64,000 bases of DNA, from the NCBI RefSeq assembly GCF_009914755.1, contig NC_060941.1; one strand, given 5' to 3'. Below the pieces are notes generated by a model, which saw only the letters and a program-made list of their open reading frames with translations, was not told the origin of the DNA and made no database searches. Below, in pieces: positions 20,441 to 51,979 of the stretch. A program made the translations under genes and the position numbers. The stretch comes from the human T2T-CHM13v2.0 reference genome, Homo sapiens. Each line of letters opens with the position of its first letter. The stretch's first letter is position 1.

Positions 20441-20532
20441 ATGTTGCTTCTGCCTGGACTGAAAATTATGGGCTACAAGAAAAGATCTCCCTAAATCCCT
20501 CTGTTCGCTTTAAGGCAGAGAAACTGGAAATG
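20441..20532 (+). CDS. STXBP4: STXBP4 coding exon (probably exon 8)
   Basis: Acceptor tgtctcttAG|AT and donor ATG|GTAAAA; 92 nt. Translates (D)[30 protein letters not shown]. Confidence 0.94.
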
Positions 20533-21860: not shown

Positions 21861-24469
21861 GTCATTCAGTTCCATCTCCTTCATTCAGACTTTGCTAACT
21901 ATTATAGTTCGGACCAACATTGCCTTCTTTTGCACGTTAGTAGCACTTACCTTCACTTTTTGGTGCCCTATAATCTTTTCTATATCTTGTTTTATCAATG
22001 AAATTATAAGTGTCTTCACCGCAGACCCTGTAGCACCTATTAGTGTTTAAATAGCTGCTTCGTGCTCCATAAAATTTTCCAATTAATTAGATACTTGAGA
22101 TGTCTCCTTTATACTTTCAAAATCCTGAGTATCTTTTGTAACGTGTGTTTATGTTTGTGGCTAAAATGTAAGTTCTGGCTAACGCTTGGTCTGCAATCAG
22201 TTAATAGTAATATTTTCAAAAATAGAGTGTTTGAAGTTTAAAAGCATGACAATTACATATCTAAAAATGAATAATTATTCAATGATATTGATTTAGTATA
22301 CATTTCTGAACATCCAAGATTTAATACCATTCTTCTGGATAAGGAGAAATTTATCCAGCTAACTGCTTTACCTGACAGACTTTGTTATTTTACTTAGTTT
22401 AAATTTTTCTAGCACATGATATTATTTTTAATCTGATTAATATTCTTTGAGGTATGAAAATCGAAATTTGTATTGATTCTGAGAAATATGAGTTGCTTGG
22501 CCATTAAATCCGAATTCCAGTTTTGGTTCCCCTTTAAGCCTTAACAAATTATTTTTGTGGAAAAGTAAAATGCCAGTTTTACATCAAAGAAACCCACATT
22601 TGATATAAATTCAGCCTCTGCTCTTAATCAAGATAGACTTGTTAATTTTATTTAGTAGAGCATTCTTTTTTTTCAGTTTGAAACTATATTTCTCTTAATA
22701 ACTTTATTCGTGAAATCTACATTAGCATCTATCCACCCAAATTATTTCTTGAGCTACTCTTCTTGTTTTGCATTACTGATGCAATACAACACAAGTAAAA
22801 GCTATTACTTGTTTTGCACATACTGATATTAATGTCATAATATCAGTATCATCTCAGCTTGAAATAGGTCCTTCTCTTTTGGTTGCTACTTTGTAGACAG
22901 ATTCAACTTTGTTGTCCATTACGTTTTAACACATTCCTATTCAGTAATAAATAAGGCCAATGTGATCAGGTATTTAAAATAAAATAAAATAAAATAGTAT
23001 ATTTTTTAATCTTCTATAAACATTACACGTGGCAGCTCGAAAATTGGTGTTTTAATAAAATTTCACAAGGAAAGGATGTTTACTAATTATGAATTTATTA
23101 AGTAATTAGCCTACCCAGTACAATTTTTAAGGAAAGCAGAGAGGTTAGAATTTGATTAAGGAAATTACCTGTCAAGACAATGTCATATATATATATATAC
23201 ACACATACAAACATATATATGTTCAGACATATGTATATATACATGTGGCATTGTCATGAATTCTTTTATATTTTATTGGTTTAAGTAGAGAAATTTATAA
23301 CACTGAACTAGTTATTTCTTAATTCCTTGTCTGTAAAATGGATTTACATTTGCCTCTTTCTGTGAATACTCTGAGAATGATTTAATATACAGATATTTTA
23401 ATGTTATTTCAGCATAGTTATTTGTAGTGATATATTTCTTCAAAGTATGAATAGTATATGTCTCATTTGATCCTAATATTAAACTTATAAATATGCATTA
23501 TAAACTTAGCAAATAGGGATACAATTTATTGCTTGGCTTGAAATCAAAATATCGTACCTCTGCATTATCTGTATATTTATACCTATGGAAGATGCTTTGG
23601 GATATGGATGCCATTTCGCTGATATTTACTTTTACCTCTTGCCATTTCTGTAACGTTTCAAGAAAACTGTAGAGAGCAATGGCATACCCAATGTCTCATT
23701 ATAGTTAATGAAATATTCTTTGTATTAGGCTGAAAGGTGTGTGACTAATATTGTAACAAAGTAATTTTTAAAATTCATCATTCAGACATCAGAAAAACTT
23801 CAGCACATTTATTTGTCTAATTAACAAACTTTTATTTTTGCTTCAGATTAAAAGATGACCTTAGTCATTTAATAAATTATTGGAACCAACTTTTTGTTTT
23901 ACTTTTTTCCCCATACATATTCTGCTTACATATGAGACCTACTTTTTGATAAAACATGTTACTTCCAACTTAAATTTAAGAGCTTACCTAACATGACATG
24001 TGGTATTCTTCTAGTGTGAATTTTACTTTCAACAAAACTGTCATTTATTACTAAGCTTAGCTCTATATCAAAGTACACTGAGTTAATTGCATTGTGTAAT
24101 TTTATTACTTAATGTAAGAATTACCATATATTGAGCACCTTCTGTGATAGACACTTTATTTGCATTATTTTTTTTAATTTTTTTTAAATTTCTTTATATT
24201 AAAATATTAATCATGTACAAGAATGTATGTATTATACACATACAGTTTAAAGAATAATAAAACACACATTTACCCATCACCCAACTTAAGAATCAGAACC
24301 TTTGACATTGCTAATGTATTTCTTCTTGATCATATGTACCTCTCCCCAAAAGAGGGGAAATTTTGAGTTCGTCATTTCTGTATTTTTCAAAAATTTTCAG
24401 TTAATTTAAGTATTGTGGGATCAAAGAGTTTATTTTCTTTTTCTTTTTTTTTTTTTTTTTTTTTTTTTT

Positions 24470-24784
24470 GCAGTTGCAAGATTTAATAGAGCTCCCATAA
24501 CAAAGGGAGGGGACCCAAAGAGGGTAGCCATTGGTGGCTCGAATGCATGAGTTTATATCCCGATCATTGTCCTTCCCGCTGTACTCTCAGGCAATAAATT
24601 ATTGGCTATTTCTTTACCTCCTGTTTTTGCCTAATTAGCATTTTAGTGAGCCCTCTTTACTACCTGATTCGTCGGGTGTGAGATAAGTTGCAAGCCCTGT
24701 GTTTAAAAGTGAATGCGGTCACCTTCCCAGCTAGGCTTAGGGATTCTTAGTCGGCCTAGGAAATCCAGCTAGTCCTGTCTCTCA
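24470..24784 (-). promoter_or_regulatory. 3' LTR17 (U3-R, lacking U5)
   Basis: The minus strand starts TGAGAGACAGGACTAGCTGGATTTCCTAGGCCGACTAAGAATCCC, the LTR17 5' end. It has CCAAT (24601-24605), TATAAA (24552-24557) and an ATTAAA polyA signal (24482-24487), and is preceded by the polypurine tract GAGGGGGGAC (24785-24794). Confidence 0.92.
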
Positions 24785-24842
24785 GTCCCCCCTCTCAACA
24801 GGAAAACCCAAGTGCCATTGAGGAGGTTGGCCGACGACCGCT

Positions 24843-25080
24843 CTAACTGCTTCCTGCTGAACTGGGGTGTAGTAGGGTTTGTGCAGTTGAGATTTCCTCA
24901 GGAGGGGTGCCTTCGATGTCATTAACATCAGAGCATGGGCTAGCAGGCCGGTCCAGGGGTCCGCGGTAGATCTTAGTCATGGACTGCATCAGGTGCTCCA
25001 TTTGAAGAACTATTTATGGTTTTACAGCTTCGATTCTGGAAGAGACAAGCTTAACAAGGAGGTTAAAGATACAGGGATTG
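24843..25080 (-). pseudogene. HERV-W env remnant (TM cytoplasmic tail only)
   Basis: Translates to PCIFNLLVKLVSSRIEAVKP*IVLQMEHLMQSMTKIYRGPLDRPASPCSDVNDIEGTPPEEISTAQTLLHPSSAGSS*, homologous to the syncytin-1/HERV-W Env C-terminus. SU and the ectodomain are deleted. Confidence 0.88.
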
Positions 25081-25099
25081 AAATGTATAGCCTGCAGTG

Positions 25100-27590
25100 C
25101 AGGGGATTATTTCTTTGGCACACTTCACAGTGCACCATTGGTTACCTTTCCATTGGTTAGCTGCAGGCAAAAGTATTTTTCCTTCTTCGGTGGCTAGCCA
25201 TCCTGAGGGGAGGAAACTGTGTCCTCATGAGGTTCCCCATTCTATTTCTTCTTCTGAGTACTGGGGCTTCGTTTCCCGGAGGGCATTACCCCATAGTAGG
25301 GTTCCTTCTATAAGCATTTCTAATGGAGGGTCCTGCCTTGCAGCTCTTTTTGCTTCAATATCTGCTTGGCAGTTCCCTTCTATTTCCCTTTTCTTTCCTT
25401 TCTGATGACCCCAGCAGTGTAAGACTTCCACCTCTTTAGGTTTCTATACTGCCAGTAATAATCTCCTAATGGCTTCCTGATGTGTGATAGGTGTTCCCTC
25501 GGAAGTTAGGAATTCCCTTTCTCTGCATATTGCCTCATGGGCATGGAGGACTAGGTGAGCATACTCAGAGTCTGTATATATATTTACCCTTTTCCTTCTC
25601 CTAATTCTAGTGCCCCAATGAGGGCTATTAGTTCTGCCAGCTAAGCACTAGTTCCTGGAGTGAGGGGATTACTTTCAAATATTCCATTATCACTGACCAC
25701 TGCATACCCCGCTTTTTGAGGTCCTTTTTCTACAAAGGAACTTCCATCAGTATACAAGTTGAGGTCAGGATCAGTCAAGGGAACCTCTAGAAGGTCCCCT
25801 CGAGTGGCATAGGTTTGAGAAATTATTTGTTGACAGTTATATTCTATCTTCATTGTCTGGAAGAAATGTGACTGGGTTAAGAGTTGCACAAGTGCACAGT
25901 TGCAGCACTGGCCTTTCAAGTAATAGAGCCTGATATTTAAGTAAACGGTTGTCTGACAGCCACAAGTCTCCTTTAGCAGTGAGTATGCTGTTCACCTCAT
26001 GAGATGTCCACACAGTAAGATCTCTCCCTGTATTATTTTAACTGCTTCAGATACTACAACTGCTACTGCCACCACTACCCATAAACAATGAGGCCAACCC
26101 TTTGCCACTACATCAGTTTCCTTACTCAGGTATGCCATGGGTTGCAAGCTTGTCCCTTGGACCTGTGTAAGGACTCCCAGAGCTGTTTCTGTTTTTTTCT
26201 GTGATGTATAAAGAAAAGTCTTGCCCCGTTGGCAAGCTTAACACTGGGACTTGGGTTAAGGCCTTCTTTAGGGCCTGGAAAGCCACTTTTGCTTCAGGTA
26301 TCCATCTTACTAAATGGGTATTGGCTTTCTGAGTTTCCTTAATTACTGTATATAATGGCCTGGCTATTTTGCCATACCTGGGAATCCATATTCGGCAGAA
26401 GCCTGTTATGCCAAGGAACTCTCTTAGTTGCTTTAGGGTTTTGAGATGAGGATAAGCCAGTATAGGCTGGATACATTCCTCACTGAGGGCCTTGGTGCCT
26501 TTGGATAATTTTAGTCCTAAGTATTTAACCTGCTGTGAGCAGAGCTGAGCCTTCTCTTTGGAAACCTTGTAGCCACAGGTGGCGAGGAAATTTAAGAGTG
26601 CTTGGGTGGCTTGATGGCACAAGGTTTCTGAACAGGCAGCTAAAAGTAAATCATCCACATACTGAAGGACAAGAGTGTCCAGGTATGATAACTGACTCAA
26701 GTCTTGGGCTAATGCCTGGCCAAATAGATGGGGGCTATCCCTGAACCCTTGGGGTAAAACAGTCCAGGTGAGTTGAGACATTGGGTTCAAAGGATCTTCA
26801 AAGGCAAACAAGAATTGAGAGTCAGGATGTACAGGGATGCAGAAAAAGGCATCCTTAAGGTCCAGGACTGTAAACCACTCTGCTTCCTCTGGTATTTGGG
26901 AAAGCAGAGTATAAGGGTTAGGTACAGCTGGGTATAGAGGGACAACGGCCTCATTGATAATCCTGAGATCTTGCACTAACCTCCACTGTCCACTGGGTTT
27001 CTGTGCTCCTAAAATTGGAGTATTGCAGGGCTGTTGCATGGTTTTACTAGACCTTGGGCTTTTAGGTCCTTAACAATTTTTTTGAGTCCTTGTTGGGCCT
27101 TGGTTCTAAGTGGGTACTGCCTTTAGGGGGAGGGAGGCAGAATCCTTTAGTTTAATTTGAACAGGATGGGCATTCTTTCCTTGTCCATATTGTCCTCCTG
27201 TTGCCCAGACTTCAGGATTAATTCCTTCCTCAAGCACGGGACAACAAACGGGTGTTCCTTCTCCTATGTTCAGGTGTGTAATGGCCCCTGCTTTTGCTAG
27301 AATGTCTCTCCCTAACAAGGGAGTGGGGCTTTCAGGCATAATTAGAAAAGCATGTGAAAAGAGTAAAATTCCCTAGTTACAACTTAGTGGCTGGGAGAAG
27401 TATCTAGTGACTGGCTGTCCTAGGACCCCTCGGATAGTGACAGATCTGGAGGACAGTTGTCCGGGACAGGAGAGTAAGACTGAGAAGGCCACACCAGTGT
27501 CCAGGAGACAGTTAACCTCCTGGCCCTTAATGGTCAAGCATACCCGGGGCTCTGTGAAGGTGATGGCATGGGCTGGCACTTCCCTGGGCA
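25100..27590 (-). pseudogene. HERV-W pro-pol, frameshifted (protease, RT, RNase H, integrase N-terminal remnant)
   Basis: Protease motif LLDTG (ORF 27373-27615). RT motifs LDLKDAFF, LPQGFRDSP and YVDD (ORF 26122-27039). RNase H motif LYTDGSSF (ORF 25641-25919). Integrase remnant CEVCQRNNP near 25105-25130. Confidence 0.93.
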
Positions 27591-29025
27591 CCTTCAGTCC
27601 TGCTGCTGGATCCATCTGGTTAGTGGCTTCTGACTCAGAGGACCTTCATCCCCTGGGGCAATTGGCCTTCCAGTGATTCCCTTGACATAAGGGGTATGGA
27701 CAAGGGGGCAGCTTATTTCTACTTGGACAATCTTTTTTAAAGTGTCCTCGTAGGCCACACTGGAAGCAAGCCCTATTAGGCATTCAATTTGCCCAGCTTT
27801 TCCCTTTTCCAGAGTCTCCAAAGTCCGCTTGCCTGAGGGCCATGACTAAAGTGGTGGCCTTTTTTTTTTGTCCCGTTTGTCCCGTTCTGCCTGCTCCTCC
27901 TGATTTCTATTATAAAAAAACCGAAGTTGCCAAGTTCAATAGGGTTTCTAAGTTTTGCTCTGGGCGTAAGGCAGACTTTGAAGTTTTTTCTAATGTCTGC
28001 AGCTGACTGAGTGATAAACTTATCCTTTAAGATTAGTTGGCCTTCAATAGAGTCAGGTGACAGAGAGGTATGCTTTCTCAATGCCTCCCTTAGTCTCTCC
28101 AGAAAGGCGGTAGGATTTTCTTCCTTTCCCTGTGTTATAGTGGACATCAGTGAATAATTCATAGGCTTCTTCCTAGTTTTCCTTAGTCCTTCTAGCACGC
28201 AAGTTAGCAAATGTCTGTGGCACCAATCTCCATGTTCTGATTCTGTGTCCCAATGAGGGTCTACACTGGGAACTGCCTGCTGGCCTGTGGGGAATTGTTC
28301 TCTTTCCTCTGTTGTCATCCTATCATTGACCTAACTGAAATACCAGAGATTGCCAAACTCTTGGGCTGCAGTTATGGCAGCACTTCTCTCATTTGGGGTT
28401 AGTGTCTGATTTAGCAGTAACATTATATCTCTCCATATCAGATCAAAGGATTGTCCTAACCCTTGTAAAGCATCAGTATAGCCATCAGGGTTATATGAGA
28501 ATTTACCTAGGTCTATTAAGTCTGAGAGAGAAAAAGGTACATGCACTCTGGCTGGACCAAATTCTCCTCCTCCCACTGCTTGGAGTGGGCATAATCGGGG
28601 AATATTGGCACTCTTTGGTTTGTTGTTTACCCCTTTGTCTATCTCCTTTTGTACCGTTTGGGTTGAAAGGGGGTCCTTATTAGTTGGGGAAGGAGTCGGG
28701 GGGACGCTGGGGTAGGGAGGTAGACTCTGAGGGCTTCCTGTAGGGCATAAATCACACTTTTTACATAATTGCGAGTTGTCTCTTAATGAAAAGAAAGTTT
28801 GTACATATGGCACTTCACTCAATTTGCCTTCTTTTCTACAAAAGAGATCTAGCTGTAAGATGGTGTTATAATTTATACTTCCCTCAGGAGGCCAGGTTTC
28901 TCCCCCTTGAAGAGGATATCATGGCCAGGCAGTACTGCAGAAGAATATAAGTCATAGCGTCTGAGGGTCAAATTGGTCCCAGTTCTCCAGAATACATCTT
29001 AAGGGCATTTTTGCCTTGGAGAGAA
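27590..29025 (-). pseudogene. HERV-W gag, disrupted
   Basis: ORFs 28331-28822 and 27776-28318 contain the major homology region QGKEENPTAFLERLREAL. The NC zinc knuckle CFQCGLRGHFKKDC lies near 27725-27770. The start codon appears mutated and several frameshifts are present. Confidence 0.9.
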
Positions 29026-30119
29026 CATTTCTCTTCTGGAAAAAGAACAGGGATGCCAGCACCCCTACTCATTTTCCAATGAGCATTAGTCCTAGAGCGT
29101 CCTTTATGGTCCTAATGCTTATTCCTTTCCAGGGTGCGTCACCACCCATGGACCTCTGTTTATCGGTTTAGTTACACTCACCGATGTAGCAGTCCTGCAC
29201 CTGTTTTCTCACCTTTCTTGACCACAAAGAAAGGGGTCCAGAGTGCTGGATTCTAGTCCTTTACCAGTGTGCCCAACGTTGCCTTTGTGCTCAGGGGTGA
29301 GTCCTAGAGCTGGGCTGGGTTCCTGAGTATTTCATAACAACCCAGCTGCCCCATCAAGATGCATTCCCATAAATAGTTCTTATGCAAATTCGTTTCAGAG
29401 AGGGTGTAGGTAACCTTTAGAGTCAGGATTGAGATAGTCTTTTTGATTCTGTAAGTACTTTAAGGCTTGGCTGAGTGCAAACAGCTCTCACGTTTGAGGA
29501 GACCAATTATTAGGCAATTTTTCTAACTCTGCTTCCACAAGATCCTCCCTATCAATTACTGAATACCCATTGTGGCTTTTTCCTCAATCACCTGGAAGGA
29601 ACCTTCTATTGTCCTGAAGGGAGTTCCTCCTAGGTCTGGTTGGTCCTTTGTATGGTAATTAAGATTTAAATCCCCTGTAAGGAAATCTGCTGGGTTAAGT
29701 GAACCATCAGTGGTGTTAAATTACCTTTTTCTAACAGAATAGCCCCATACTTTAAGATTTTTGAGTTAGTAAGCTACCTTTTTGCTTTTTTGACTTAGAA
29801 TAATTCTGAACTGGTGAGGTGTGCTCACAATGAGGTTTCCTCTAAAAGTTACTTTCCTACTTCTGTTAGCAAAGCAGTTGCCACTACAGGCTGAATGCCT
29901 CTGGGCCGTCCGTGGGTTACTGGGTTAAGGATTTTTGATAGGAAGGCTAAGGGTTGTCAGTGGTCTCAGTATTTTTAGGCTACACCCTTGTTTGCACTGA
30001 CAACAAGGTAGTATTGGAGTGTTATAGGGTCACGGAGAAGACCTTCAATTATCAATTATAGGTTTTAAATTTACCCTGGCTTTTAAAGGAATAGGGCACA
30101 CTGGTTTTTTACTATTTCT

Positions 30120-30230
30120 ATCTTTCTCTTTCTCTCTTCGACTCTCTTTTTCTCCTCTGTCTCTTTCGCCTCTCTGCCTGTTTCTCTCCTCTCTGCCTCT
30201 GTCTCTCTCCTCTCTGTCTCTTTTCTCTTA
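30120..30230. repeat. CT/AG-rich low-complexity tract in the HERV-W pre-gag leader
   Basis: Run of ctct/ctgtct units, typical of the HERV-W leader. Confidence 0.8.
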
Positions 30231-30918
30231 GCCATTTACAAACTTGGGGCCCTGGCAAGGGTGATGGGGAACGGATCCTACATAACTGCCCATGTCGAGA
30301 GCTGTATGCCTAAATTGGGAGGGACAAGACACCAGGAACAAGACTCCCTGGGTTTATAGCCTAGATGCCTAAGGACGCAGCAGCGTAGAGCTTCCTTAGA
30401 TCCCTTTGGAGATACAACTTGCTAGAGGAAATGAAAGTCTGAATCATTAGTACCTAGGAGGCAGGGATCAGAGGAAGTAGATTCAGAGGTAAGAAGAATT
30501 TGGGGGCTACACTTTCAAGAAAGTCGTGGTCGGGACCCAGGAGGTATGGGTTAGAAGGAAAGGTAGGGGTGCACGCATGGGCGACTGTTGAATAGAGACT
30601 TCTGGCTGTGCCATGATCTCAACTGGCTGAAGCCGGGAGTTCGCGACGACAGCTTTCTTACTCTAGTCGGCCCTTGGCTTCCCCAAGAAAATTGAAAGCG
30701 GAAGCTGGTTCTAGGCAGACGAATGCTCCCAACCCAGAAGGGTTGGGAGTTGTTAGAAAGCCCTTTCCCAGACAGCCTCACACCTGAGTCTTAAGTCTGG
30801 CAGCCATGCTAATCATTTTTAACTGGCCGACAGGTGCCCAGTATTTTCCTCCAATTCTAAGGAAAGATAGGACAGAATAGCAAGCAAAAGTGGTCCAATA
30901 TTACTCACTGCTTTGGAG

Positions 30919-30936
30919 GTCCCTTCGTGGTCGCCA
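30919..30936 (-). promoter_or_regulatory. Primer-binding site of tRNA-Arg type (TGGCGACCACGAAGGGAC)
   Basis: Lies 3 nt after the U5 terminal CA. It is complementary to GTCCCTTCGTGGTCGCCA, the recalled 3' end of a human tRNA-Arg(TCG). A major splice donor GCA|GTGAGT follows at 30903-30908. Confidence 0.8.
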
Positions 30937-30939
30937 AAA

Positions 30940-31440
30940 TGTTACTGGAGGTCCTTGCTCCCAGGGCTCCCAGGATGGTGGTGGGCCGCTTCCAAGATGG
31001 TGGCAAGCCTCGTGTTCTCTGACCTTGGGTTCTTGGCCTCATGGATTCCAAGGAATGGAATCTTGAGCCATGTGGTGAGTGTTAGAGCTCTATTAGAAGC
31101 CGTGGGTCACGGAAGAGAACCCACAGAACCCAGTGACTAGTATTGAGCTCGATTAGGACGCACCCGGGCGCTTAGCCGTGCAGGAACAATGGCAAGCCTT
31201 TAGCCCGATCAGGAACGGCAATGGGCAACTTGCTGGATCAGGAGCACAGCGGACACTCTGCCGGATTGAGAGGGATGGAAGTCAGCAGCGGGTCTGCGAT
31301 GGCAGCAAACAGCAGTGGTGGACAGCGAGCGAAAACTCAGCTCCAGCCATAACAAACACAGACCAGAAGAGTACAGTTGCAAGATTTAATAGAGTGAAAA
31401 CAGAGCTCCCATAGAAAGGGAGGGGACCCAAAGAGGGTAG
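30940..31440 (-). mobile_element. 5' LTR17 (R-U5 only)
   Basis: Begins CTACCCTCTTTGGGTCCCCTCCC, the same R sequence as in the 3' LTR, and ends ...CCAGTAACA before the PBS. Confidence 0.9.
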
Positions 31441-31474
31441 TCCGAGTTTGTTTATTTTCAATTTACATGAGGTG

Positions 31475-31903
31475 TGTTTCATGCATCCGTGTGAAGAGAC
31501 CACCAAAGAGGCTTTGTTTAAGCAACAAGGCTGTTTATTTCACCTGGGTGCAAACAGGCTGAGTCCAAAAAAGGAGTCAGCAAAGGGTGGTGGGATTATC
31601 ATTGGTTCTTACAGGTTTTGGGATAGGCGGTGGAGTTAAGAGCAATGTTTTGGGGGCAGGGGGTGGATCTCACAAAATACATTCTCAAGGATGGGGAGAA
31701 TTACAAAGAAACTTCTTAAGGGTGGGGGAGATTATAAAGAACATTGATCAGTTAGGGTGGGGCAGAAACAAATCACAATGGTGGAATGTCATCAGTTAAG
31801 CTATTTTCACTTTTGTGGATCTTCAGTTGCTTCAGGCCATCTGGATGTATACGTGCAGGTCACTGGGGATATGATGGCTTAGCTTAGGCTCAGAGCCCTG
31901 ACA
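31475..31903 (-). mobile_element. Solo HERV-H LTR7 (probably LTR7B-like), complete
   Basis: The minus strand reads TGTCAGGGCTCTGAGCCTAAGCTAAGCCATCATATCCCC...CACACGGATGCATGAAACA, with TG...CA ends. A perfect 5-bp TSD AGGTG is at 31470-31474 and 31904-31908. AATAAA is at 31534-31539. Confidence 0.92.
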
Positions 31904-31909
31904 AGGTGT

Positions 31910-34100
<2,191 letters not shown>

Positions 34101-44108: not shown

Positions 44109-44205
44109 GCTCTAAATTATCTTGGTATTCAGCCCACAAAGGAACAACACCAAGCCCTGAGACAGCAAGTACAAGCAGACTCAAAAGGGACAGTGTCTTT
44201 TGGAG
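44109..44205 (+). CDS. STXBP4: STXBP4 coding exon (probably exon 9), EF-hand-like region
   Basis: Acceptor tcttccAG|GCT and donor GAG|GTAATA; 97 nt. Translates ALNYLGIQPTKEQHQALRQQVQADSKGTVSFG. Confidence 0.94.
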
Positions 44206-49110: not shown

Positions 49111-51979
49111 CCTCCTGCCATTCTTTTAAAATATTGCTTTGGCTAATCTTCAGTCTTATCTTGTCCATATGAGTTCCATGAAAAATTTTGCTCTGTTGAA
49201 TTTATAGATTATCTTGGGAAGAATCAACGTCTTTATAAATTTAAGTTTCTGTGAACATGTTATGGCTTCTCATGTATTTATATCTTCTTTGATGTCAATA
49301 TATCTTATATATTTTTAATTAATTATATTTTAATAATCTAGTCACCTTAGACGCTTTTTGTTGCCATTAAAATTAATGGTATCTTTTAAAAATTTGTTTC
49401 ATTTTAAATTTATTTGGTTTTACATAAAATTAATTTTTATATTTACCTTATATCTTACAACCTTGTTATACCCATTTGCTTTTTATTTTCCAGAAAGTCT
49501 TCAACATTTTTTGTTCTAATGACACCCTTTCTGAGTTGCTAATAGTCTTATTAACTTATATATTTCTTTATTTTTGTTTCTGTTTTCAGATATACTTTTA
49601 AATAAATGATATGGTCAGTCAGGTTCTTTGAATGCTGCTAGAAACCCTAAATTCAAGCAGGAGAATAGATATGTTACATATTTTTAATAACTTTTTCTTT
49701 TAGTTCAAGTTTAAAAACAAAAATTGCACTTTTATTTCATGGTTATATTTAGAGCTCTACTGTTTTCAAGTGATATGCTTTACTGACAGGAAGTTTGAAT
49801 AGTGTTTATTATTAATTACATGATTTCAAATTCCAGAAACACAGAGTATATAAATATATAATTAATTTATTGAACAAATAAGTCTGACCACTCATTTAAA
49901 AAATGATGCATGTCACTTTTTTTAATGTTTCAAATCACTTTGTTCTCTTTTGTAAGCAATCTCTTTTACTGCTAAGCATGTTGCCCATTGCAATCACCCA
50001 CAGATCTGGTTGTTCTGTAACCCTCAGGAGAGTGCCCAGTTCTCCCAGAATGAAGCACTGATTTATCAGAACTAATTTTGTCGCATTTATTCAAAGAGAA
50101 CTAAAGCTGTATTCAAGGCGCACAGTTTTCATTCTGCTGATTCAGGTGTTGTGTATTAATCTACCTAATGTTGATGTCAGGGAGCATTGTTTTTTACTGC
50201 CAAACAGTTCTCAGAGCTGCCATGCTCATTTTTGATGAGGAAGGCAAAGATGGTTGGGTAGTTTACAACAAGCCAATGAAATAGGCAATTCAGAGTATTT
50301 TGTATGAGCAAGCAAATCTTTTTTAGCAGCTGCAGATGGATGGTCATGCTCCAGGTTAGCAATTTATTTCCTCCTTACCAATATAATTTTAGGGCAGATA
50401 AGAATGTGTTTATAGTTTGGAAGTTGTTGGGATTAAAAAAAAAATATGTTCAACCTGTGAGACTTTGACAGCAAAAGCAAAGCGCTAATGGCAATTGTGC
50501 AAGAGTCACTAATTCCAGACATGTCAATAATTCTGACATGTCAATGATTTCCAATTTGTGGCTTCAGATCAAAATGTCGTGCAATAGAATTATATTAATT
50601 TTTTATTATATTTTTTCACTTGAGTACAGAATAAGAAAACATATTTTACACCATACTCACGTATATAACTGAAACAAAAGCCTGTCAAAGCATTAGTTAC
50701 CTTTTCTATGTACATTGCATTCTTATTTAATATTCACTTGTATTTCATTAAAACTTTGGTTTCACGATTCGCTAATGGGTGATGTAACAGTCTGAAGAAA
50801 CATTATAAAAATCACAATTTTAGTCATGTGGCTCACCAAAAGCAAATAAAAAATAACTGATTGTTTTGCAGTGTAATTCCCTACTTTTTTGAGTTCAAAA
50901 GCAGTTTAGTCCCCCATCTGAAGTATGCCAATCAGTCTGTAGTTACAGATGCTGACTGTCTGTGAGGGTGGGGAATTCCACTATGGTTACCCTGTCAACC
51001 ATCTCAGTTTCACAAACAACAGGCCTGGGTCATTCTGTTAGGCATGTATGTCTTTTATTCATGTTTTCTTTTTTTGGCTGATAATGATGGCTTGTCTTTC
51101 TTAATTTATTTTTTTAAATATTATTACTGAAATCTAATATATACAGAATAAAGTACAAAAAGTGTACAATTTGATGAATTTTTATTATGTGTCTCACATG
51201 GAATCACCACTCAAAAGGCTCCCTCAGGCCACCTTCCCAGTCAGCCGCCACTCCCACCTTTACATTGGAACCAGTATTTTGACTTATAACAACATAGATT
51301 ATTTTTGCCCCTTATTGAATTTCATAATAAATAGAATTATAGAATATGTACTCTTTTGTAACTTGCTGCTTTTCCTCATTATTTTGTCTGACTCATAAGA
51401 TCTCTTGAGATGCTATCTTTTAAGTAGGAATTGCTGAGTCAGTATAAAGTCAGTCCTACTTTTGTTTGTTTGACAACTTTTGGGTTTGGAAGAATATGAC
51501 ATTTAGAACCAAAAATATAATTATCTTACTGTGAGTCTAATCATCATTGCTACATTAGAAAATTCACACAGTGCTACACCTGCTGCTGGCACAAGGTTAT
51601 ATGCAGAAAGGGCAAGGCTGGAGCCCACATTTAGCACTACTCTAAACCTAGCAATAGCAGAATATAGTCCATCATAGTATGATTTTACCAGACTAATCAA
51701 GTACTGTATCATTAATGGATTATCTTAAAATTATAGAGAGAACACTAAATTCCCTAAAATAGATTTTTCACAGTTTGGGCTCTTGTTAAGTCAATTTAGT
51801 GGGCTGCGACTACCATTTTAAACAAGTGAAATAGAACAAAATGGAAAATACCAAAGGGAACTGTATATGATAAAACTGAGTAATGTTTCACTTATACAGG
51901 ATCATAGTATGTATCATATTTCTCACCACGTATAGCAGTAAATACTTTATAGCCACTTCCCTAACGAAAACACGAAATA

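What the first reader, a model, noticed from the sequence alone, without database searches (positions are those of the whole stretch)
24438..31908. Solo LTR7 (HERV-H) ~30 bp upstream of a promoterless HERV-W retrocopy: candidate captured-promoter unit antisense to STXBP4
Seen in sequence: the HERV-W copy lacks its 5' U3 and so has no promoter of its own. An independently inserted, complete LTR7 (own AGGTG TSD, 31475-31903) lies in the same orientation about 32 bp upstream of its R start. The LTR7 carries KLF-type GGGTGGGG motifs (31720-31727, 31755-31762). Downstream, the HERV-W splice donor (30903-30908) and the 3' polyA signal (24482-24487) are retained. Established: LTR7 family members act as promoters and enhancers in preimplantation embryos and pluripotent cells. 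Inference: LTR7 may stand in for the missing U3 and produce a HERV-H/HERV-W hybrid RNA antisense to STXBP4, able to interfere with STXBP4 or form dsRNA. Caveats: the LTR7 TATA-like box reads TGTAAG here, and its own AATAAA (31534-31539) could terminate upstream read-through.
Basis: partly seen in the sequence, partly recalled or inferred. Interest (0 to 1): 0.8.

Follow-up and report, generated by a model that had tools for sequence, protein, structure and literature searches.

The report
Solo LTR7B beside HERV-W retrocopy
Two already catalogued retroviral fossils sit 25 bases apart, head to tail, inside an intron of STXBP4, and nothing available here shows that the upstream one drives the downstream one, so the finding is most likely ordinary.

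Summary
The sequence observation holds. A 429-bp solo HERV-H LTR (31475-31903, minus strand) has a perfect 5-bp duplication, CACCT. It lies 25 bp upstream of, and in the same orientation as, a U3-less HERV-W processed pseudogene (24438-31449). That retrocopy has a perfect 10-bp L1-type duplication and a poly(A) tail.

Corrections:
- The LTR belongs to subfamily LTR7B, as listed in Carter 2022. [quoted passage not shown]
- TGTAAG is a common family variant, seen in 12 of 30 copies, not a lesion of this locus.
- Three poly(A) hexamers, not one, lie between the presumed start site and the splice donor.
- The donor has A at position -1.

The retrocopy is the published locus HERV-W 17q22. It has a rhesus orthologue and is more diverged than the LTR, so the LTR7B probably arrived later.

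No minus-strand RefSeq model exists here, and no paper links STXBP4 with LTR7. Published RNA signals at 17q22 come from a microarray and from ribo-depleted total RNA, whose reads could be STXBP4 pre-mRNA. A hybrid RNA ending at 24470 would overlap no STXBP4 exon.

The promoter-capture idea is possible but untested. Interest is low.

The parts
31904..31908 (-). Upstream copy of the 5-bp target-site duplication (CACCT) of the HERV-H integration
31475..31903 (-). Solo LTR7B (HERV-H LTR), 429 bp, TG...CA. It is 91-94% identical over its full length to at least 39 other genomic copies.
   Evidence: listed as solo LTR7B in Carter 2022 supplement 2
31755..31762 (-). CACCC-type (KLF/Sp-like) box CCCCACCC. 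The surrounding 12-mer is kept in 21 of 29 relatives.
31720..31727 (-). Second CCCCACCC box. The surrounding 12-mer is kept in 20 of 29 relatives.
31608..31613 (-). TATA-like box reading TGTAAG. G at the second position occurs in 12 of 30 copies, including 3 of 7 clear proviral 5' LTRs.
31534..31539 (-). LTR7B poly(A) signal AATAAA, invariant in 29 of 29 relatives
31470..31474 (-). Downstream copy of the 5-bp duplication (CACCT)
31450..31459 (-). Upstream copy of the 10-bp L1-type duplication GAAAATAAAC. It is preceded by TT, which resembles an L1 endonuclease site, and it contains AATAAA at 31451-31456.
31372..31449 (-). HERV-W 5' R with no U3 upstream; holds ATTAAA at 31385-31390
30940..31371 (-). 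HERV-W U5, GU-rich just after R, followed by the primer-binding-site region at about 30919-30936
   Evidence: The boundary and the name of the primer-binding site come from position and recall, not from a test.
30903..30908 (-). HERV-W leader 5' splice site GTGAGT, with A at position -1 here
27779..28330 (-). gag fragment (Gag_p30, E 2.2e-16); frame broken on both sides
27376..27645 (-). Protease fragment (RVP, E 0.0016, below the curated cut-off)
26125..27069 (-). Reverse transcriptase fragment (RVT_1, E 7e-29); at 315 aa the longest open frame in the element
25447..26237 (-). RNase H fragments spread over three frames (weak hits)
24851..25130 (-). Junction that lacks integrase and most of env. 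The junction is shared with most HERV-W copies and leaves only the 3' end of env.
   Evidence: the whole segment at query 771-1000 is adjacent to pol in 31 other copies; six more match it only in part; recurrent deletions described in Grandi 2016
24528..24850 (-). HERV-W 3' U3 with TATAAA at 24552-24557, pointing out of the element
   Evidence: The upper boundary is approximate.
24471..24527 (-). HERV-W 3' R with ATTAAA at 24482-24487; 11 nt shorter than the 5' R
24438..24469 (-). Poly(A) tail of the retrocopy
24428..24437 (-). Downstream copy of the 10-bp duplication GAAAATAAAC

Best explanation
Two independent, fixed retroelement insertions lie antisense in the STXBP4 intron between the exons at 20441-20532 and 44109-44205.

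Step 1, shown: an L1-mobilised HERV-W transcript was inserted as a processed pseudogene with the layout R-U5-gag-pro-pol-(deletion)-env tail-U3-R-A(n). This is the published locus HERV-W 17q22, which is shared with rhesus.

Step 2, inferred order: a HERV-H provirus with LTR7B ends later integrated 25 bp upstream and collapsed to a solo LTR by LTR-LTR recombination.

Step 3, inferred function: the pair is not a dedicated transcription unit. In somatic tissues both elements are silent passengers, and the RNA signals reported for 17q22 are mostly STXBP4 pre-mRNA. At embryonic genome activation, or in naive-like or hypomethylated germ-cell-tumour states, the LTR7B may open like other family members, more probably as a KLF-bound enhancer than as a productive promoter. 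Any RNA it starts must pass three poly(A) hexamers within about 200 nt before it reaches the HERV-W donor.
For: Structure:
- The ends, both duplications, the poly(A) tail and the absence of a 5' U3 are shown.
- The internal genes were identified with Pfam.

Identity in print:
- The HERV-W locus is 17q22, a processed pseudogene in STXBP4 intron 8 on the opposite strand.
- The LTR is listed as solo LTR7B at hg38 chr17:55018532-55018958.

Insertion order:
- The 17q22 locus has a rhesus orthologue (supplement).
- Only 22% of 7b copies lift over to rhesus, and most inserted 10-20 Mya (whole section read).
- The terminal branch is 0.11 for the HERV-W R-U5 (family median 0.093) and 0.041 for the LTR7B (family median 0.035).
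- With every CpG-containing column removed, mean pairwise distance to 29 relatives is 0.072 against 0.056.

Function:
- The 7up 8-bp motif is absent from the LTR.
- Hundreds of LTR7Y/B loci in naive hESC carry H3K27ac without a linked transcript.
- Transcripts over intronic HERV-W pseudoelements track the host gene and were read as pre-mRNA.
- The PBMC data for 17q22 come from ribo-depleted total RNA, and the passages I saw do not mention strand.
- Poly(A) hexamers lie at 31539, 31456 and 31390.
- The hub's RefSeq table has no minus-strand gene in the window.
- No paper holds both STXBP4 and LTR7, and none holds HERVW_17q22.
Against: - A review table lists 17q22 among HERV-W loci hyperexpressed in testis tumours by microarray, with no LTR function scored. 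It was also detected in 6 of 7 young and 6 of 7 old PBMC samples.
- Germ-cell tumours and early embryos are settings where LTR7B could fire.
- The promoter-side motifs of the LTR are intact. Both CCCCACCC boxes and the CACCC box just 3' of the TATA-like box match most relatives.
- TGTAAG is carried by 3 of 7 clear proviral 5' LTRs, so it need not disable the promoter.
- KLF4 and KLF17 activate hundreds of solo LTR7B/Y.
- Retroviral 5' LTRs routinely read through their own poly(A) signal. This point is from my own knowledge.
- The insertion order is not proven, because 22% of 7b copies are as old as the rhesus split.
Confidence: 0.65

Rival explanations
1. The solo LTR7B acts as a stand-in promoter. 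RNA starts about 25-30 nt downstream of TGTAAG, reads through the LTR's own poly(A) site and the two further hexamers, enters the HERV-W R-U5, and either splices from 30908 or runs unspliced for about 7.1 kb to the 3' R ATTAAA. The result is a HERV-H/HERV-W hybrid RNA antisense to the STXBP4 intron in early embryos, naive cells or germ-cell tumours.
For: - Same orientation with a 25-bp gap.
- Family motifs and AATAAA are intact.
- The TGTAAG variant is present in proviral 5' LTRs.
- KLF4 and KLF17 activate solo LTR7B/Y.
- 17q22 was reported hyperexpressed in testis tumour although it has no promoter of its own.
- The donor GTGAGT and the 3' ATTAAA are retained.
Against: - I could reach no transcript evidence, and the hub's RefSeq table has no minus-strand model.
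- Three poly(A) hexamers lie between the presumed start site and the donor. One of them is the complete HERV-W R/U5 site that formed the 3' end of the source transcript.
- The donor has lost its -1 G.
- Most active solo LTR7B/Y lack linked transcripts.
- Co-opted HERVH roles were found for LTR-flanked copies rather than solo LTRs.
- The RNA would overlap no STXBP4 exon, so an effect on STXBP4 is a further unsupported step.
Confidence: 0.15
2. The LTR7B works only as a stage-specific enhancer, bound by KLF4/KLF17 at genome activation and in naive cells. It acts on STXBP4, COX11 or TOM1L1, and the HERV-W copy is irrelevant.
For: - Hundreds of LTR7Y/B loci carry H3K27ac without linked transcripts and were interpreted as enhancers.
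- Two CCCCACCC boxes are conserved.
Against: - No locus-specific chromatin data were seen. The supplements of Pontis 2019 could not be opened.
- Only a subset of family members is active.
- RefSeq's only annotated enhancer in the window is at 51005-51084 (hub table).
Confidence: 0.2
3. HERV-W 17q22 RNA is real and minus-stranded but starts inside the retrocopy. It would come from residual promoter activity of the truncated R-U5, or from general derepression in hypomethylated tumours, independent of the LTR7B.
For: [quoted passage not shown]
- Six processed pseudogenes are listed as upregulated in tumours. None of the 16 other U3-less copies fetched here has an LTR7B within 1.5 kb; whether these include the six listed loci was not checked.
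Against: - The primary paper is not held, so 17q22 itself was not checked.
- Intronic pseudoelements behave like host pre-mRNA in normal tissues.
Confidence: 0.1

Closest known systems
HERV-W processed pseudogenes made by L1 (Pavlicek 2002 and Costas 2002 as cited; Grandi 2016, locus 17q22)
   Same: It has the R-U5...U3-R-poly(A) layout and a 10-bp duplication at a TT|GAAAA site. It carries the recurrent integrase and env deletions and lies antisense in an intron. It is this very locus in the published catalogue.
   Different: Nothing essential. Private features are an 11-nt shorter 3' R and about 100 bp less than other copies between pol and the retained segment.
Solo LTR7B of HERV-H (RepeatMasker; Carter 2022)
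   Same: It has TG...CA ends and a 5-bp duplication. It is 91-94% identical over its full length to copies attached to HERV-H internal sequence. The CACCC boxes and AATAAA are conserved, and the copy is listed as solo LTR7B.
   Different: It has eight private substitutions. It lacks the 7up/7u1 8-bp SOX2/3 motif, as expected for a 7b copy.
LTR7/HERVH-driven lncRNAs and chimeric transcripts (ESRG and similar, as named in the reviews read)
   Same: The proposed logic is the same: an LTR supplies the start site, and downstream sequence supplies the donor and the poly(A) site.
   Different: The known cases mostly use LTR7up attached to HERVH internal sequence with its own donor, and they are documented by RNA data. 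Here the LTR is a solo 7b, the downstream body is a foreign HERV-W retrocopy, and no transcript is documented.

Membership tests
HERV-H LTR, subfamily LTR7B | Full-length similarity to genomic LTR7B copies, including ones joined to HERV-H internal sequence | tested here: met
   All 39 other scored copies are 91-94% identical. Among the 29 fetched relatives, seven are followed by the same proviral leader and six are preceded by a polypurine-like GACAGGAA.
HERV-H LTR, subfamily LTR7B | TG...CA termini and a 5-bp target-site duplication | tested here: met
   The flanks read CACCT on both sides. Ten of 29 relatives have perfect 5-bp duplications and none has 4 or 6 bp.
HERV-H LTR, subfamily LTR7B | Curated subfamily call | tested here: met
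   Carter 2022 supplement 2 gives chr17 55018532-55018958, strand C, solo, LTR7B. I did not run RepeatMasker or Dfam myself.
LTR7up (ESC-active HERVH promoter) | 8-bp AAAAGAAG insertion with a SOX2/3 site in block 2b | tested here: not met
   None of the 16 window matches lies inside 31475-31903. The motif is taken from the paper.
HERV-W processed pseudogene | 5' end at R with no U3, and 3' end at R plus poly(A) with no U5 | tested here: met
   Thirteen of 29 other copies show U3 with TATAAAC upstream. This copy and 16 others do not.
HERV-W processed pseudogene | Long duplication at an L1 endonuclease-like site | tested here: met
   The 10-bp GAAAATAAAC occurs on both sides and is preceded by TT. 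The L1 site preference is recalled, not tested.
HERV-W processed pseudogene | Colinear retroviral genes | tested here: met
   Gag_p30, RVP (weak), RVT_1 and RNase H (weak) occur in order on the minus strand. No integrase or env surface domain was found.
LTR-promoted chimeric transcription unit | Transcription start inside the LTR with RNA continuing into the downstream body | not testable with these tools
   No RNA-seq, CAGE or chromatin data are available. The hub's RefSeq table shows no minus-strand model.
LTR-promoted chimeric transcription unit | Bypass of the LTR's own poly(A) site | not testable with these tools
   AATAAA is intact (29 of 29 relatives also keep it), and two further hexamers lie downstream.

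The most novel reading that the evidence does not exclude
At embryonic genome activation, and in naive-like or germ-cell-tumour cells, the later-arriving solo LTR7B gives the 25-30-My-old promoterless HERV-W 17q22 retrocopy a start site. The result would be a stage-specific HERV-H/HERV-W hybrid lncRNA. This RNA would account for part of the 'HERV-W' or MSRV-like pol signal assigned to 17q22, and it would form long duplexes with the STXBP4 intron.
Probability: 0.1. Interest if true: 0.35.

Novelty: already known. Interest (0 to 1): 0.15.

Why it matters
If the hybrid RNA existed, it would be one more LTR-driven lncRNA among the many already described. It would also be a neat case of one retrovirus family re-arming a dead copy of another. 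Its practical relevance would be to studies that assign HERV-W or MSRV-like RNA to specific loci.

As things stand, the value of this check is in the corrections. The LTR is LTR7B, so primed ESC data are the wrong place to look. Unstranded signals at 17q22 cannot be read as transcription of the element.

Tried and rejected
- Rfam scan of 24000-32500 found nothing.
- Literature searches: STXBP4 with LTR7 gave 0 papers. HERVW_17q22 gave 0 papers. In a wider five-term search, none of the 25 listed papers out of 1,126 hits held STXBP4.
- Schmitt 2013 (PMC3838257), the paper most likely to report transcription and promoter tests for 17q22, is not held.
- The main text of Perot 2012 does not name the locus. 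I did not open its supplements.
- The two held supplements of Grandi 2016 do not mention 17q22.
I did not use that tool again.
- I tested whether TGTAAG marks a sub-lineage. On a star-like tree the G/A label needs 8 changes, and 102-104 of 500 shuffles do as well. It is therefore not clustered, and I rejected it both as a lineage marker and as a private lesion.
- I considered that the pol-env deletion might be private to this copy or a splice product. I rejected this because the same junction is in most copies and is described as recurrent.
- No primate genomes are available here, so the orthologous site could not be examined for insertion order.
Full report
**What is in the sequence**

I read 24300-25300 and 30800-32100 on the minus strand and checked positions by script. 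A 429-bp LTR spans 31475-31903. It runs TG...CA and is flanked on both sides by CACCT (31904-31908 and 31470-31474).

Ten base pairs further on (31460-31469) comes GAAAATAAAC (31450-31459), and then a HERV-W R region starting at 31449. The same 10-mer recurs at 24428-24437, directly after a poly(A) tail (24438-24469) that follows the 3' R (24471-24527).

Aligning the 5' end with the 3' end shows that only R is shared: 31440-31374 against 24527-24471, 55 of 68 positions, with the 3' R 11 nt shorter. There is no U3 upstream of the 5' R.

Of 29 other HERV-W 5' ends fetched from the same genome, 13 have U3 with its TATAAAC upstream. The gap between the elements is 25 bp rather than about 30.

**The LTR**

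The LTR matches at least 39 other places in the assembly at 91-94% identity over its full length, out of 2,677 first-look candidates of which 40 were scored.

Among the 29 closest copies:
- Seven are followed by the same proviral leader, so they are 5' LTRs.
- Six are preceded by a polypurine-like GACAGGAA, so they are 3' LTRs.
- Ten are solo LTRs with perfect 5-bp duplications. None has 4 or 6 bp.

Supplement 2 of Carter et al. 2022 lists hg38 chr17:55018532-55018958, complement strand, as a solo LTR7B. The same copy is in their alignment file. It is therefore LTR7B, not LTR7 in the strict sense.

Passages and one whole section of that paper state the following:
- Only 7up is robustly transcribed in ESC and iPSC.
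- KLF4 peaks overlap 91% of 7up loci.
- Only 22% of 7b copies lift over to rhesus, with most insertions 10-20 Mya.

The 8-bp AAAAGAAG motif needed for 7up activity is absent from the LTR. None of its 16 window matches falls in 31475-31903.

**Promoter-side details**

- The two CCCCACCC boxes are family features. The surrounding 12-mers are identical in 21 and 20 of 29 relatives.
- The CACCC box just 3' of the TATA-like box is kept in 20 of 29 relatives.
- AATAAA is kept in 29 of 29 relatives.

G at that position is present in 12 of 30 copies, this one included, and in 3 of 7 clear proviral 5' LTRs. On a star-like tree it is not clustered: 8 changes are needed, and 102-104 of 500 shuffles do as well. 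It is a common variant, not a lesion of this locus. The copy has eight private substitutions.

I recall, without a call to support it, that HERV-H promoter activity depends on an Sp1-type GC/GT box just 3' of the TATA box. If so, that box is intact here.

**The HERV-W copy**

Pfam finds the following in order on the minus strand, spread over several frames:
- Gag_p30 at 27779-28330.
- A weak protease hit at 27376-27645.
- RVT_1 at 26125-27069, which at 315 aa is the longest open frame.
- Weak RNase H fragments at 25447-26237.

No integrase or env surface domain is found. A search with 24900-25900 shows pol joined, at about 25130-25099, to a 3' segment. The whole segment is adjacent to pol in 31 other copies, and six more match it only in part. 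Grandi 2016 describes exactly these recurrent deletions: integrase lost in 84% of copies and env in 85%, leaving the cytoplasmic tail of TM.

The locus is their HERV-W 17q22:
- It lies at hg19 chr17:53088886-53095859 on the minus strand.
- It is classed as a processed pseudogene.
- It sits in STXBP4 intron 8 in opposite orientation to the gene.

**Order of insertion**

The supplement of Grandi 2018 gives orthologues of 17q22 in chimpanzee, gorilla, orangutan, gibbon and rhesus, so the retrocopy predates the split between Old World monkeys and hominoids.

The retrocopy is also more diverged from its relatives than the LTR is from its own:

| Measure | HERV-W R-U5 | LTR7B |
|---|---|---|
| Terminal branch of this copy | 0.11 | 0.041 |
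| Median terminal branch of the copies in the tree | 0.093 | 0.035 |
| Mean pairwise distance to 29 relatives | 0.132 | 0.071 |
| Same, with every CpG-containing column removed | 0.072 | 0.056 |

Together with the family-level dating of 7b, this makes it likely, though not proven, that a HERV-H provirus integrated beside an already resident retrocopy and later collapsed to a solo LTR.

**Could the LTR drive the retrocopy?**

The layout permits it. However, a transcript starting about 25-30 nt after TGTAAG, near 31583, would meet three poly(A) hexamers before the donor:
- AATAAA at 31539, about 44 nt from the presumed start.
- A second AATAAA at 31456, inside the L1 duplication, about 127 nt from the start.
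- The HERV-W ATTAAA at 31390, about 193 nt from the start. It is followed by the GU-rich U5, so it is the complete site that formed the 3' end of the source transcript.

The donor at 30908 lies about 675 nt from the start. It has A at position -1 here. Five of the 29 other copies have G there and four share the A.

A product ending at the 3' R would be about 7.1 kb long. It would be complementary only to intron sequence, because the nearest STXBP4 exons are at 20441-20532 and 44109-44205 (hub table).

**Published expression**

- A review table lists 17q22 among HERV-W loci hyperexpressed in testis tumour by microarray, with no LTR function scored. The main text of the source paper, Perot 2012, does not name the locus.
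- PBMC RNA-seq detected 17q22 in 6 of 7 young and 6 of 7 old donors. The libraries were ribo-depleted total RNA, and the passages I saw do not mention strand.
- Li 2011 found that transcripts over intronic HERV-W pseudoelements track the host gene, and read them as pre-mRNA or leaky transcription.
- A 118-bp MSRV pol clone is 98.2% similar to 17q22.
- Pontis 2019 reports that KLF4 and KLF17 open hundreds of solo LTR7B/Y at genome activation and in naive hESC. Most such loci carry H3K27ac without a linked transcript and were read as enhancers.
- A 2025 review notes that co-opted HERVH roles were found for LTR-flanked copies rather than solo LTRs.
- No paper holds both STXBP4 and LTR7, and none holds HERVW_17q22.
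- The hub's RefSeq table has no minus-strand gene in the window.

**Verdict**

Both elements are already catalogued. Their adjacency is rare: none of 29 other HERV-W 5' ends has LTR7B within 1.5 kb. It is nevertheless a single coincidence noticed after the fact.

The promoter-capture reading remains an untested possibility. I put it at about 10-15% for any detectable hybrid RNA, and far lower for an effect on STXBP4.

The right tissues to test are 8-cell embryos, morula, naive cells and germ-cell tumours, not primed ESC. Supplements that I could not open (Pontis 2019, after paper reading closed) and a paper that is not held (Schmitt 2013) may bear directly on the question.

Noticed in passing
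window 24552-24557 (minus strand): The retrocopy carries an apparently intact HERV-W U3 TATAAA at its 3' end. It points out of the element toward the STXBP4 exon at 20441-20532. So the only HERV-W promoter sequence at this locus faces the downstream flank, not the element itself.
   Followed up: no
window 31451-31456 (minus strand): The L1-type target-site duplication GAAAATAAAC itself contains a canonical AATAAA. This adds a poly(A) hexamer between the LTR7B and the HERV-W R.
   Followed up: partly
window 24471-24527 against 31374-31440: The 3' R is 11 nt shorter than the 5' R of the same retrocopy; the missing stretch lies just upstream of ATTAAA.
   Followed up: no
window about 25130-25147: Between the end of the pol match and the retained 3' segment this copy has 16 nt, where other copies have about 116 nt. 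This is an extra deletion of about 100 bp private to this locus or shared with few others.
   Followed up: no
L017 (G000:C9:136341129-136342114): Two full-length LTR7B copies lie in tandem about 120 bp apart on the same strand.
   Followed up: no
window 24860-24530 (3' UTR/U3 region of the retrocopy): A review mentions a post-transcriptional regulatory element (SPRE) in the syncytin-1 3' UTR that is present in about 40 HERV-W loci. I did not check whether this copy keeps it.
   Followed up: no
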